A program made the translations under genes and the position numbers. From NCBI RefSeq assembly GCF_006345805.1, contig NC_043002.1, positions 43,586,001-43,650,000 on the forward strand: DNA of 64,000 nucleotides. Direction: 5' to 3'. Source of the DNA: Octopus sinensis. Taxonomy: Eukaryota. A model generated the notes under the pieces. It was not told where the DNA came from. It made no database searches and saw nothing but the letters and a program-made list of their open reading frames with translations. Position 1 is the stretch's first letter. The number at the start of each line of letters is the position of its first letter. Below, piece after piece: positions 874-39,099 of the stretch.

Positions 874-968
874 GTTATCACTGATGAGTTCCAAATGGCG
901 ATATATAATAATATGCATTACTTTTATTGAAATATGGTTTTTGCGACAGAAACAGCTGTCTGACTAAC
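874..968 (+). ncRNA. Type I hammerhead ribozyme-like motif in putative PLE pseudo-LTR
   Basis: gttatca-CTGATGA(881-887)-long stem II-GAAAC-AGCT-GTC(958-960)-tgactaac. The core boxes are intact, stem III is palindromic, and stem I pairs with one bulge. It lies next to the PLE ORF. Confidence 0.7.
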
Positions 969-1229
969 TTAAATAAATAATCCATATTAGCATCAAAACC
1001 TTTTCTATTTATTTGATCACATTTATTGAACGGTGTCTAATAAACTGATTCTTATAATTATATTATTTTTATATATTCATACGGAAATGAAAGGAATTCC
1101 TTAAATAAAGTATGATAAAAAAAAACTTTGGAAACCTTAGGAACAATGCTCTAAACTGAAGAAGTATTTTCATACGGAAATATATTATATATATATATAT
1201 ATATATATATATACGCGCGCGCGCACGCG

Positions 1230-3720
1230 CAGGGTATTCGGGTTAAATTTTACTGCATGCATAAAAGTAAAAGGAAACACAATATCACATCCAAATAAAA
1301 GTAATTAAAAAAATTTCTAAAACCAACTAGATTAAGGCTGAAAAATAACAGTTTATTCAAAATAGCCGCCCCCGGCTTCCTCCTCAGCCTCAGGACACTC
1401 CAGAAACCGCTGCGTACGTTCCTCACTGTGTTTCTGAGATTTTCGAACGCGTCCTTGACCTTGACTACCAGCTCGGTCTTGGTGTTGCAGGCAGAGCAGT
1501 TGGTGTCTTCCTCAACTGCGCCCTACACGTAGTAATCCATGGGGTTACAATCAAGGAAAATAGGAGGTTAGACACTGGGGCTGATGAAATCATAGAAATT
1601 TTCGAACCACTTCTGACTCCTTCTGGGCGTATGGTAAGGAGCTGAATCCTGCTGCCACACATGTGACATTTCAGCAGCAACCCCCTCCAGCCAGAGTTTC
1701 ACCACAGTCTCGAACATCTTCACATAACCGTCTGAATTGAGCGTAGGGCTTGGTTCAAAGCTGTAGGGCGGCATGATGTCAAACTCACTAGAGATACACC
1801 CAAAGACCATCAGGAAACTTAGTTTTCGTGATATGTGGTATATCACATGGATTGTAGACAAGTCACCTGTTATTTTGGGGTTTGTGCAAATGGTCTTGGC
1901 AGAAGTTCTTTTCATCTGTGAAGAACCGGATCATCTTCGGCTCCATAAGATGCCTCAGCTTGTTCAGGAGTTGCTTTGCCTTCGTCAACAGATTCTCTAT
2001 GGCCTTGGATGTCAGGATTTATCCCTTGTGGCTCTTGTCCAAGTGGTAGCGAATGGTTTCATTCAGATCCAGTTTCATAGTGACGACTCCAACATACATC
2101 TCTTTCGTCAAAGTCCAGATTCCCTTCTCCGGATCATGCATCTCTTTGTCCAGCAGTTTTTGGACGGATTTTGGCCTATTGTGTCCCTTCCTACTAACCA
2201 CGGCTTCGTAGTTTCCATTGCAGCTGTCCATGTCACGTCTTACAGCCTTTGCAATATTCACAGAGCATTAAGCAGCAATCGTGATGTAAGCATTTTGATT
2301 TCCGGCGCGAATCCTCATGATATACGAGGGGCGTTCAATAAGTAATGCCCCTGACCCACTTCCCATAGCAGTAGAGCAACGACACTTGGCACAGGTATTA
2401 GTCTTTTTCTACATAGGAACAACCCAGAGGTACGCATTTCTCCCATCGTTTGATGCAGTTCTGGAGACCGTTTTCGTAGAAGACCCCAGCTTGGTCCTCC
2501 AACCACGACGTGACTTCAGAAATCAAGGCTGCATCATCTGGGAAACGCTTTCCTTTCAAAAACAACTCCATGGCTGGGAAGGGGTGAAAATCAGAGGGTG
2601 CAAGGTCAGGAGAGTAGGGGGATGGGGGAAGAGTTCATAGCCGCACGCCTGTGCTTCTGATCTGGCGACACGCGAGTTGTGGACCGGAGCGTTGTCCTGC
2701 AGGAGGAGGATGCCTTTGCTGATCTTGCCCCGCCTCTTGGTTTCGATAGCTTCTCTTAATTTCCTCAAAAGTGAAACATGATGGGCTCCTGTAATTGTGG
2801 TACCCTTTGCCAGGAAATCTGTCATCACTACTCCGTCCTGGTCCCAGAAGACTGTGAGCATGACCTTGCCAGCGGAGGGCTGCACCCTTGCCTTCTTTGG
2901 AGGAGATGAGTCATGGTGCTTCCACTGCATTGACTGGGCTTTGGTCTCTGGATCATAGTGATGGACCCAGGTCTCATCCTGTGTAATCAGTCTTTTGAAA
3001 AATTTTGACTCATCTTCGTGGCACATCCCTAAATTCTTGCTTCTGGAATTCTTGCGTTCTTGCTTCTGGAAAAGTGTGAGCAACCTGGAAATCCATCTGG
3101 CAGACACCTTTTGCATATGCAAATGGTCATGAATGATAGTTTCCACAGACCCGGTACTAATCTTGACCTCATGGGCTATTTGGCGAATAGTTATGCGTCG
3201 ATCTTCCAAAATAGCAGCCTCAACTTGACGGACAGATGCCTCATCAATGGCAGAAGGGGTGCGACCAGATCTGGGAGCTGTTTCCACAGAGTTCCGACCA
3301 TGTTTGAATTCACGATGCCAGCGTTTTACAAGGTCATATGATGGGGCATCATCACCATAAGTTACTTTCATTTCATTAAAAGTCTCCTGTGGTGTGCGTC
3401 ATTTCAAATACAAAAACCGGATCACTGCTCGACACTCAACATGCTCCATTTCCCACTTGACTCATTTCAAACACCTGTAAATCAGAAACCACAATTAGTT
3501 CGGAGCTGTAACTTGCCACTTAATCTATAGAGATATCAATAATTACACATGCAATTTCAGCTAGATCAAACAAAGGCAAGTGGGTCAGAGGCATTACTTA
3601 TTGAACGTCCCTCGTAGGTAACTCTTTTCCACCATTCCACGTTGATTAAGTTATTTATAAAGTTGAGGTTAGAACTAGAGCTTGTCGAAATGTAAAAATT
3701 TGACTCTAAATGATGATGCA
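1230..3720 (-). mobile_element. Degraded Tc1/mariner-superfamily transposon, maT/DD37D-like, interrupted by a mariner at 2325-3614
   Basis: Minus-strand motifs IRFFTDEKNF, MVFGCISSE, WQQDSAPYHT and *PPIFLDCNPMDY, with 36 residues between the 2nd and 3rd Asp in this copy. CAGGGT-type end at ~1230. The right end is uncertain. Confidence 0.75.
2325..3614 (-). mobile_element. Full-length mariner (DD34D, irritans/Hsmar2-like) with TIRs and TA target duplication; transposase pseudogenised
   Basis: TA|CGAGGGGCGTTCAATAAGTAATGCCCCTGACCCACTT ... AAGTGGGTCAGAGGCATTACTTATTGAACGTCCCTCG|TA. ORF 2556..3371 contains WISRLL, TQDETW and QDNAPVH. YSPDLAPSD follows a poly-C frameshift, and there is a TGA at codon 17 of MEHVECRAVIRFLYLK*. 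Confidence 0.95.
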
Positions 3721-4193
3721 ATGCGTTTTCCTTTTTCCCCTCTCTCCCACTTTTTCTCTCTGTCCACCTCTCTCTTGCACACACACACACAATTTGTTTC
3801 GACACTCACTATCTAAAATCTGATTTATCTAATATCTATACTAAATGATGTTTATTCCTGGTAAGTAAATACTTTGAACGTTGATAACAAAAGAAAAGTA
3901 AATAATATTATCGATTATATACAAATGCTAAAAGCTTGCTCTACAAATTTTGCGTCGGTCAATGAACATGAAGTTGCTTTCCCTCTTGTATGTCCTTTCA
4001 TGCAATCGTTGGCATTGCGTAGTCAAACGTAGGTATTTAACATCTTTCGGTTGCGTAGCGAAACAGAAAACAAAGATTTCTTTTGGTTTTATTTCTTAAT
4101 ATTTTTGCGTAGTTTCCAGAGCAACACAATTCCATTTTTTATTTTTTTCGAAAAAGAAAAAAAAAAAAAACTACCTATAAACACAGTCAATAT

Positions 4194-37671: not shown

Positions 37672-37749
37672 ATCCCAGACCGACGGTTTCTACCTATTTT
37701 TAGCAAACAAACAAAATATATTTGCCAAGGCCAGGTTCTTCAGTGGGAT
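37672..37749 (-). ncRNA. Type I hammerhead ribozyme, apparently intact
   Basis: rc: ATCCCA-CTGAAGA-ACCT-(ttggcaaa...tttgctaa hairpin)-AGGT-A-GAAAC-CGTCG-GTC-TGGGAT. Stem I is a perfect 6 bp, the core is canonical and the triplet is GUC. Confidence 0.8.
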
Positions 37750-39027
37750 GCCTTCATCATACTGATGCACAGTATTGTACATTTTATTGTATTTCTATAT
37801 ATATATATATATATATATATATATATGTATATGTTCATGATGGGCTTCTTTCAGTTTCCATTCATCAAATCCATTCACAAGGCTTTGGTCAGCCCAAGGC
37901 TATAGAAGAAGAAGACACTTGCCCAAGGTGCCAAGCACTGAGACTGAACCCAGAACAATGTGGCTAGGAAGCAAACCTCTAACTACACAGCTATGCCTGC
38001 ACCCTCTCATTTTTGCTTTCCGTTTTTTTTTTTCTTTAGGAAAACATTAGCGAAGCTGTTGGTTTATAGCCCAGTGCATCTCTGATAACTGTTACAAATG
38101 AAAATCTATTACCTGAATTCAACAGCTGTAAGTTCCAAATTAACACATCATAAATGTTCCTTTTTTTCCCACAAATTTCAATAAAACATTTACTTCAAAT
38201 GGGCAGCTGATTTATATAAAAGTGCATGACTATTGTCCCCCAAACCTGAGAATAATGGTGTCTGTATACAACAGCTGTTTTTTTTTTATTGGCATACTTT
38301 GCCAGTATTCTTAATGTTTAAACATATTGATACGTTCTAATTCTCAGTGCAATTAATCCAATTTTCCAACATGAATGCATATATGTATACATATTTGCAT
38401 GTGTGCATACAAATGGGTGGGTGAATTCATGCATACATATATTTATATATATATATATATATATATATATATATATACAATTCCTGGTCTGGGCTATGTG
38501 TTACGCTCTTGATAAAGACATTTTATTTCATGTTGCTCCAGTTCACTCAGCGGTAGTCACTGGTGCTTTTAGTCAAGCAAATCGTCCCCAGGACTTATTC
38601 TTTGTAAGAAGCCTAGTACTTATTCTATCAGCTCTTTTGCCAAACCGCTAAGTTACGGGGACGTAAATACACCAGCATCAGTTGTCAAGTGATGTTGGGG
38701 GCACAATCACAGACACACAAATATATACACACATATACATATACATACATATATATACATATATACAACGGGCTTCTTTCAGTTTCCGCCTACCAAATCC
38801 ACTCACAAGGCTTTGGTAGGCCTGAGGCGATAGTAGAAAACACTTGCCCAGGGTGCCATGCAGTGGGACTGAACCTGGAACCATGTGGTTGGTAAGCAAG
38901 CTACTTACCACACAGCCACTCCTATGCCTATATATATATATATATAGATACGTTGGTGTAAAGAGGTAAAATAGAACCCAAAATATGAGTATGTGTATAT
39001 TTTTATTAATATGTAGCAGAAGTAACA

Positions 39028-39099
39028 GCATGACTCAAGGTCTGAGAGTTTCATGTGTTGCCACTTGGCAACACACAAAACTCTCAAATCTTCAGATAC
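39028..39099 (-). ncRNA. Hammerhead-like motif with insertion after core
   Basis: rc: gtat-CTGAAGA-tttgagagtttt-GTGTGTTGCCA-ag-TGGCAACACAT-GAAACTC-tcagacctt-GAGTC-atgc. Confidence 0.5.

What the first reader, a model, noticed from the sequence alone, without database searches (positions are those of the whole stretch)
874..39099. At least seven sequence-unrelated hammerhead-like motifs in one window, nearly all beside microsatellites
Seen: CUGANGA...GAAA...NUH-like topologies at 874-968(+), 1156-1187(+, partial), 12270-12327(+), 15454-15496(+), 31618-31655(-), 37672-37749(-) and 39028-39099(-). Their stems differ in sequence but mostly still pair. Several share a non-canonical extra or mismatched purine at the stem II junction (xA-GAAA or CUGANGA-A). 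Inference: multiple independent PLE/retrozyme families target TA-type microsatellites, which implies a very large and structurally variant ribozyme repertoire in this genome.
Basis: partly seen in the sequence, partly recalled or inferred. Interest (0 to 1): 0.75.

Follow-up and report, generated by a model that had tools for sequence, protein, structure and literature searches.

The report
Hammerhead tails of Penelope-type jumping genes
Six of the seven sites are decayed copies of six different repeat families that carry a hammerhead-shaped RNA motif of a kind already described in Penelope-like jumping genes (self-cutting is predicted, not tested here); this genome is unusually full of them, and one protein-coding family has changed a normally fixed core letter in about 14,000 copies, which would likely slow cutting.

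Summary
Six of the seven sites belong to six unrelated dispersed repeat families with a type I hammerhead fold. Only motif 6 is an intact canonical-core copy here. Motif 2 is chance: it is the 3' end of motif 1's element, and only the window's copy (1 of 12) has the core. Motif 7 was misread: its CUGAAGA lies in an inverted arm, while the family's real core is UUGAUAA (U3-A8). Motif 5 is the 3' UTR of an RT + GIY-YIG Penelope-like element (Neptune/Nematis type) with A6U fixed: 14,087 exact copies against 157 with A6. Motifs 3 and 6 are ORF-less tandem units (about 560 and 440 nt), retrozyme-like. Element 3' ends abut (TA)n far above background. A random 0.8 Mb gave 22 strict hits against 0.4 in shuffles (about 70,000 genome-wide), so this window is typical of the genome. 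The extra base at 9/10.1, U3-A8, a stem II base mismatch and (TA)n bias are in print. I did not find A6U or this density in print, but one key paper (Lunse 2017) was not readable. The scan has noted the same families, including A6U, on other DNA of this genome. Cleavage is untested.

The parts
861..1180 (+). Family 1: 5'-truncated copy of an AT-rich, apparently non-coding element; hammerhead at 874-968 (CUGAUGA 881-887, extra A, GAAAC 949, palindromic AGCU loop, predicted cut after C960); 3' end at (TA)n 1180
   Evidence: two long copies share about 770 nt upstream with the same start; 8 of 19 copies have inverted arms
1156..1187 (+). Motif 2: not a hammerhead; the last 25 nt of family 1 plus the (TA)n run
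   Evidence: 1 of 12 copies has CTGAAGA; no homology to any descriptor hit
12260..12494 (+). Family 3: fragment of an ORF-less tandem unit of about 560 nt (retrozyme-like) between two (TA)n runs; hammerhead at 12270-12327; family box is CCGAUGA or UUGAUGA, N.A mismatch at 10.1/11.1, GAAAC-GC-GUC (window copy CpG-decayed)
   Evidence: 1610 candidates; period 560 in 88 pairs; 555 and 573 nt units, longest ATG-ORF 43 and 32 aa
15430..15782 (+). Family 4: old, diverged (70-85%) element; hammerhead at 15454-15496, decayed at 10.1 and at the cut triplet
   Evidence: weak sign of a 400-430 nt period
31520..31910 (-). Family 5: 3' UTR fragment of a young Penelope-like element (RT + CxxxxCxxC linker + GIY-YIG); minimal hammerhead at 31618-31655 with CUGUNGA (A6U), extra A9.1, G10.1-C11.1, no loop 3; 3' end at (TA)n 31519; 5' limit approximate
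37534..37800 (-). Family 6: two-armed, internally deleted copy of an ORF-less 440 nt tandem unit; intact type I hammerhead at 37672-37749 with an extra A between stem II and G12
   Evidence: 595 candidates; Rfam Hammerhead_1 31.7 bits, gathering 34; period 440 in 110 pairs; stem II C-G/A-U covariation
38957..39066 (-). Family 7 direct arm: 3' two-thirds of a U3-A8 hammerhead (stem II, GAAAC, 4-bp stem III, GUC) plus tail ending at (TA)n; 5' box lost; 3' limit approximate
39067..39099 (-).
1..860 (-). Decayed Penelope-type RT fragment of a different family that abuts family 1 head to head; not the partner of motif 1
   Evidence: 0 of 17 extended RT loci hold family 1

Best explanation
Six of the seven sites are truncated copies of six separate repeat families that carry a type I hammerhead motif, and they were likely written into the genome by Penelope-type reverse transcriptase/GIY-YIG enzymes priming at AT-rich, (TA)n sites. 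Shown: family membership, fold conservation, linkage of family 5 to an RT + GIY-YIG ORF, tandem ORF-less units for families 3 and 6, inverted 5' arms, (TA)n 3' junctions. Inferred: reverse transcription starts a fixed 70-220 nt 3' of the hammerhead and mostly stops early, so most copies are a short hammerhead-plus-tail scar beside a microsatellite. The ORF-less families borrow the enzymes, probably through self-cleaved, possibly circular, monomers. Motifs with a short palindromic stem III would cut as dimers. Family 5's A6U motif is predicted to cut slowly or only with help from the element's protein, yet its fold stays under selection. The single decayed copies in this window are likely inert.
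For: Family searches for each motif. Descriptor against shuffles: window 1-2 vs 0-0.025; 80 random 10-kb stretches 22 vs 0.4 strict and 44 vs 4.2 relaxed; a genome-wide pattern 17,375 vs 1,057 reversed control. RVT_1 E 2e-8 and GIY-YIG E 3e-4 (just under Pfam's cut-off) upstream of family 5 on the same strand. Periods of 440 and 560 nt. (TA)4+ within 40 nt after the 3' end: family 5 22 of 23, family 6 17 of 29 anchors (10 others run on into the next unit), family 3 14 of 27, family 1 8 of 18, family 7 6 of 15, background 6%. Inverted arms in 5 of 6 families. Compensatory pairs in families 5 and 6. Among five U6 subfamily consensuses, 2 of 36 hammerhead columns vary (the free positions 7 and 17) against 54 of 122 gap-free flank columns.
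Against: No cleavage or circular RNA shown. Only 1 of 6 families was tied to a PLE ORF; families 1, 4 and 7 were shown neither tandem nor ORF-linked. Each covarying pair is probably a single event. The family 4 anchor was not at its 3' end (0 of 13 TA), so its target is untested. No window copy except the fold-back folds better than shuffles (z from +0.6 to -1.7). In the PAc element, hammerhead mutants still insert in vitro (PMC11167929, passages), so cleavage may not be needed for spread.
Confidence: 0.85

Rival explanations
1. The motifs are chance look-alikes in AT-rich, microsatellite-rich DNA.
For: A loose CUGANGA + stem II + GAAA motif arises 0.2 times per shuffled window, up to 2.
Against: Strict hits 22 vs 0.4 in 0.8 Mb; family-wide cores with compensatory changes; 14,087 vs 0 and 155 vs 0 pattern counts against reversed controls.
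Confidence: 0.03
2. The families are real PLE/retrozyme tails, but the variant cores (A6U, U4C, C3U) are dead ribozymes kept only as a binding or priming structure for the RT-EN protein.
For: A6C cuts at under 0.1 per min and U4C is much slower in vitro (PMC3088659, passages); PAc inserts without a working hammerhead (PMC11167929, passages); family 5 amplified to 14,000 or more copies after A6U; family 3 has the canonical box in only 2 of 25 parsed matches.
Against: In family 5 the variation falls on the two positions that catalysis leaves free (N7 in all four states; position 17 A, U or C in the sampled copies) while the other core bases stay fixed. That fits selection on the catalytic fold.
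Confidence: 0.35
3. The microsatellites are not targets but grew after insertion from AT-rich junctions, or were added by the RT.
For: The family ends are themselves AT-rich (…ATTAT, …CTAT), and (TG)n, (CA)n and (ATCT)n also follow some ends; the genome is full of microsatellites (150 arrays in this window).
Against: (TA)n preference of PLE endonucleases is reported (PMC8557442, passages) and PAc cuts AT-rich DNA (PMC11167929); several window copies have arrays on both sides (12168-12259 and 12495-12530).
Confidence: 0.2

Closest known systems
Minimal hammerheads (min-HHR) of metazoan Penelope-like elements (Cervera and De la Pena 2014, PMC4209133; text parts 1-2 of 4 and supplement file 2 part 2 of 3 read; file 1 not available)
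   Same: Type I, short palindromic or absent stem III, extra base at 9/10.1, G10.1-C11.1, U3-A8 and U3.G8 variants, one AGAAA row in their alignment, many heterogeneous families per genome, mostly single truncated copies and opposite-strand pairs.
   Different: No CUGU core in the alignment part I read. Their counts are 2,000-9,000 per genome against my estimate of about 70,000 strict and 135,000 relaxed (different descriptors, rough comparison).
Metazoan non-LTR retrozymes (Cervera and De la Pena 2020, PMC7229834, passages and part 3 of 6; Li, Clavereau, Pollet 2026, 10.64898/2026.07.22.740005, parts 1-2 of 5)
   Same: ORF-less, low-GC tandem units with one type I hammerhead each (families 3, 6); a mismatch at the base of stem II is known in axolotl HHR_Amex2, which cleaves; mostly monomer or partial copies.
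   Different: Units here are 440 and 560 nt (typical 170-400, reported range 51-972). Axolotl's 126,247 motifs are two families in about 28 Gb; here at least 17 clusters appear in 0.8 Mb. Expression and circles are not shown here.
Neptune/Nematis-clade EN+ PLEs (Craig et al. 2021, PMC8557442, passages)
   Same: RT, Cys linker, C-terminal GIY-YIG, hammerhead near the 3' end, 5' truncation, inverted arms, (TA)n bias.
   Different: Family 5's hammerhead has A6U. The clade was assigned from the linker motif only; no tree was built.
Natural hammerhead core variants (Perreault et al. 2011, PMC3088659, passages)
   Same: U3-A8, A6C (slow but active) and U4C are known in nature.
   Different: A6U, fixed in a high-copy animal retroelement, does not appear in the passages read.

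Membership tests
Type I hammerhead ribozyme | Three stems around CUGANGA / GAAA / NUH, open end in stem I | tested here: met
   Motif 6 in the window; family-level for 1, 3, 4, 5, 7 with the core changes listed
Type I hammerhead ribozyme | Fully canonical core bases | tested here: not met
   Family 5 A6U (14,087 vs 157); family 3 CCGA or UUGA; family 7 U3-A8. Met for families 1, 4, 6. Motif 2 fails altogether.
Type I hammerhead ribozyme | Stems supported by compensatory change | tested here: met
   Family 6 stem II C-G 17, A-U 6 of 24 rows; family 5 superfamily stem I C-G 12, G-C 5 of 27; each likely one event
Type I hammerhead ribozyme | Site-specific self-cleavage | not testable with these tools
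   needs an in vitro assay
EN+ Penelope-like element (family 5) | RT plus C-terminal GIY-YIG upstream of the hammerhead on the same strand | tested here: met
   L315: RVT_1 E 2e-8; GIY-YIG E 3e-4, 21.4 bits vs cut-off 22.6; the copy is frameshifted
EN+ Penelope-like element (family 5) | pLTR partial-tandem structure | not tested
   the two long copies are 5'-truncated
Neptune/Nematis clade (family 5) | CX2-5CXXC linker before GIY-YIG | tested here: met
   C-X4-C-X2-C in L315, L316, L317 translations; no phylogeny run
EN+ Penelope-like element (families 1, 4, 7) | Linkage to an RT-EN ORF | tested here: inconclusive
   none found in 1.5 kb flanks; the adjacent RT is another family
Non-LTR retrozyme (families 3, 6) | Head-to-tail units with one hammerhead per unit and no ORF | tested here: met
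   periods 560 and 440; dimers in L014, L019, L096, L103; no ATG-ORF above 43 aa in the two family 3 units or above 55 aa in the pieces of family 6 units scanned
Non-LTR retrozyme (families 3, 6) | Expressed monomeric and circular RNA | not testable with these tools
   only contigs of runs guessed to be RNA were offered

The most novel reading that the evidence does not exclude
This genome holds one of the densest and most varied natural hammerhead libraries in an animal (order of 100,000 copies, many dozens of families), and its most successful PLE lineage runs an A6U hammerhead that is silent alone and is switched on by dimerisation or by the element's own RT-EN protein: a protein-gated ribozyme that times RNA cleavage to retrotransposition.
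Probability: 0.2. Interest if true: 0.7.

Novelty: new variant of a known kind. Interest (0 to 1): 0.36.

Why it matters
What hammerheads do in Penelope-like elements is still open; the one reconstituted element inserts without cleavage. A young lineage that fixed A6U and still amplified 14,000-fold, beside sister lineages with A6 and the same stems, is a natural paired test of whether cleavage matters. The density also means that standard Rfam annotation misses nearly all of these motifs (motif 6 scores below gathering; motif 5 gets no hammerhead hit). The seven-motif cluster itself is ordinary for this genome.

Tried and rejected
(1) That the RT at 1-860 is the inverted arm of motif 1's element: 0 of 29 related RT loci and 0 of 17 extended loci hold family 1; that RT family has its own U3-A8 hammerhead. 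(2) Reading motif 5 as UUGAAGA + GC/GC: rejected because stem I would not be adjacent and variation falls at N7 and H17 only in the CUGUNGA register. (3) An 870-nt period for family 1: it comes from one duplicated locus, not a tandem unit. (4) Whole-window Rfam: the 150 listed of 290 matches are microsatellite-driven, with no hammerhead among them; no hammerhead hit for motif 5. (5) Expression: no RNA holder on record; contigs of three guessed-RNA runs and one unlabelled run cover family 6 but show no start, end or strand; not used as evidence. (6) Energy of folding does not separate single copies from shuffles. (7) Lunse et al. 2017 and Nelson and Uhlenbeck 2008 were not held, so A6U may be in print there. 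Searches for A6U or CUGU cores and for octopus hammerheads listed no paper on it by title or abstract start. (8) Sequence look-ups in the scan's notes for motifs 5 and 6 returned nothing, while word look-ups did.
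Full report
Setting. The window is G000:C6:43586001-43650000 of a 2.72-Gb assembly. It is 25-45% GC and full of microsatellites, with mariner and RTE-like fragments (names from recall of the motifs). That it is an octopus-like cephalopod is my recall of its repeats plus the wording of an earlier scan note; no call names it.

Observation. All seven strings are present. I wrote a type I descriptor (core box, stems I, II, III, optional extra base on either side of stem II). 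In the window it finds motif 6 with the strict core, and motifs 5 and 6 with a relaxed core; 40 block-wise dinucleotide shuffles give means of 0 and 0.025. Rfam scores motif 6 as Hammerhead_1 at 31.7 bits, under the gathering score of 34, and gives no hammerhead for motif 5. Because single copies decay, I searched each motif's family in the genome. First-look candidates were 95 (motifs 1-2), 1610 (3), 51 (4), 46 (5, youngest subfamily only), 595 (6) and 1327 (7); 40 were scored in each and 25-30 loci fetched.

Motif by motif. Motif 1: the family keeps CUGAUGA, a G-U-U/G-A-C stem II base, an A, GAAAC-AGCU-GUC and a CCA/UGG stem I; the element ends about 215 nt later at (TA)n. Motif 2 is that end: 1 of 12 parsed copies, the window's own, has CTGAAGA. 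Motif 3: the family box is CCGAUGA (5 of 25 matches) or UUGAUGA (7), canonical in only 2, with an N.A mismatch at 10.1/11.1 and GAAAC-GC-GUC. Motif 4: an old family with CUGAUGA, U-A (10 of 18) or C.A (7) at the stem II base; the window's A.A is private. Motif 5: a textbook minimal PLE hammerhead (extra A9.1, G10.1-C11.1, no loop 3) except for A6U. Motif 6: intact, with A between stem II and G12 in 33 of 34 motifs and a C-G/A-U compensatory change that fixes the register. Six window loci are homologous to descriptor hits elsewhere; no further one was found (one low-complexity match set aside).

What the elements are. Family 5 extends upstream into an RT (RVT_1, E 2e-8), a C-X4-C-X2-C linker and a GIY-YIG domain (E 3e-4, just below cut-off) on the same strand: a Neptune/Nematis-type PLE by the features in PMC8557442 (passages read). 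Families 6 and 3 are circularly permuted: sequence after the hammerhead runs into sequence before it with periods of 440 (110 pairs) and 560 nt (88 pairs), dimers exist, and no long ORF was seen. They match non-LTR retrozymes at the DNA level. Families 1, 4 and 7 were shown neither tandem nor ORF-linked. Inverted upstream arms, a PLE hallmark, occur in 7 of 28 (family 6), 5 of 25 (3), 8 of 19 (1), 3 of 15 (4), 20 of 34 (7) and 0 of 19 (5) copies; the family 7 figure is inflated because my query held the inversion. The RT at window 1-860 belongs to another PLE family with its own U3-A8 hammerhead and is not motif 1's partner.

Microsatellites. Six of seven motifs lie within 100 nt of an array, against 24% of random positions. 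After family 3' ends, (TA)4+ occurs within 40 nt in 22 of 23 (family 5), 17 of 29 (6; 10 others run into the next unit), 14 of 27 (3), 8 of 18 (1) and 6 of 15 (7) cases, against 6% background; the family 4 anchor was internal (0 of 13). Target choice versus later growth is not separated.

Repertoire size. In 80 evenly picked 10-kb stretches (799,700 nt) the strict descriptor with 3-bp stems gave 22 hits against 0-1 in five shuffles; the relaxed one gave 44 against 3-6. Extrapolated, that is about 70,000 (roughly 45,000-110,000 by Poisson error) and 135,000 copies. One narrow pattern gives 17,375 genome-wide against 1,057 for its reversed control. All fetched DNA (1.74 Mb, biased towards these repeats) gave 153 distinct hits in 44 clusters, 18 with several members and 17 seen in the random sample. 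Counting decayed relatives, 82 loci in 0.8 Mb (self-matches and a few chance hits included) is the same density as six in 64 kb, so the window is typical.

The A6U family. The exact core with U6 occurs 14,087 times and with A6 157 times; 8,239 copies have a base other than U at position 7. Across five U6 subfamily consensuses only positions 7 and 17 vary among 36 hammerhead columns, against 54 of 122 gap-free flank columns (Fisher p 7e-6; subfamilies are related and were defined by those two positions, so the p-value overstates). Sister lineages with A6 have another loop 2 and a G-C for C-G swap in stem I. A6C is slow but active in a phage hammerhead (PMC3088659, passages). PAc's hammerhead cuts only with protein and is not needed for insertion in vitro (PMC11167929, passages). 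I put a slow or protein-helped ribozyme at about 60% and a dead but retained structure at about 35%.

Comparison with print. PMC4209133 already gives the extra base at 9/10.1, U3-A8, palindromic stem III, family heterogeneity and one AGAAA row. PMC7229834 gives an active U.U mismatch at the stem II base and 126,247 motifs in axolotl. PMC8557442 gives the (TA)n bias. The giant squid paper lists 235 Rfam hammerheads (PMC6962438, passage). PMC6765202 and PMC6155905 were seen as passages only. I found no paper on A6U or on cephalopod PLE hammerhead density, but Lunse et al. 2017, which by my recall reports about 150,000 PLE-associated variants, was not held and may cover them. Earlier notes of this scan describe the same A6U family and similar clusters on other DNA of this genome; I had the counts before seeing those on A6U, and they are not independent support.

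Verdict. Real but largely known biology: six hammerhead-bearing PLE/retrozyme-type scars, one chance motif, one misread motif. The residual novelty is the density and the fixed A6U core. New variant of a known kind; interest 0.36.

Noticed in passing
window 1-860 (-) and L266 (last 700 nt): A decayed Penelope-type RT of a separate family; its relatives carry a U3-A8 hammerhead (UUGAAAA box) both upstream and downstream of the ORF (L303, L304, L309, L310), and a decayed copy lies about 680 nt before the window start.
   Followed up: partly
L131-L185 (family 7, subfamily of the window): None of the 34 copies shares direct sequence more than about 15 nt upstream of the 5' core box; many start at the same few bases. 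This hints at a fixed RNA 5' end or a strong RT stop at the hammerhead's edge. Unexplained.
   Followed up: partly
L156, L166-L174, L178-L183 (family 7, second subfamily): A subfamily with a broken 15.2-16.2 pair, a long pairing between the tail and a stretch 17 nt upstream of the core, and in long copies about 1 kb of A-tract/T-tract repeats upstream.
   Followed up: no
listing, e.g. G000:C1:257506-258667: Abundant tandem units of about 558 nt with a U.U or A.A mismatch at the stem II base and a palindromic tetraloop in stem III; 1x1 mismatches at 10.1/11.1 look common among this genome's canonical-box families.
   Followed up: no
L002, L256, L263, L287, L336: A sister lineage of family 5 has CCGACGA (U4C) with A6; several unrelated families also use a CCGA box.
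   Followed up: partly
window 2323-3421 (-) and 58519-59612 (+): Two 93-97% identical copies of a mariner-like DNA transposon with transposase frames (name from recalled motifs).
   Followed up: no
window 44629-47104 (-), 29449-30177 (-), 33686-35033 (+): RTE-like LINE fragments; the first has endonuclease and RT frames with few breaks (name from recalled motifs).
   Followed up: no
window 26453-27220 and about 15 other sites: An abundant SINE-like repeat, here as a 285-nt tandem joined by (ATT)n.
   Followed up: no
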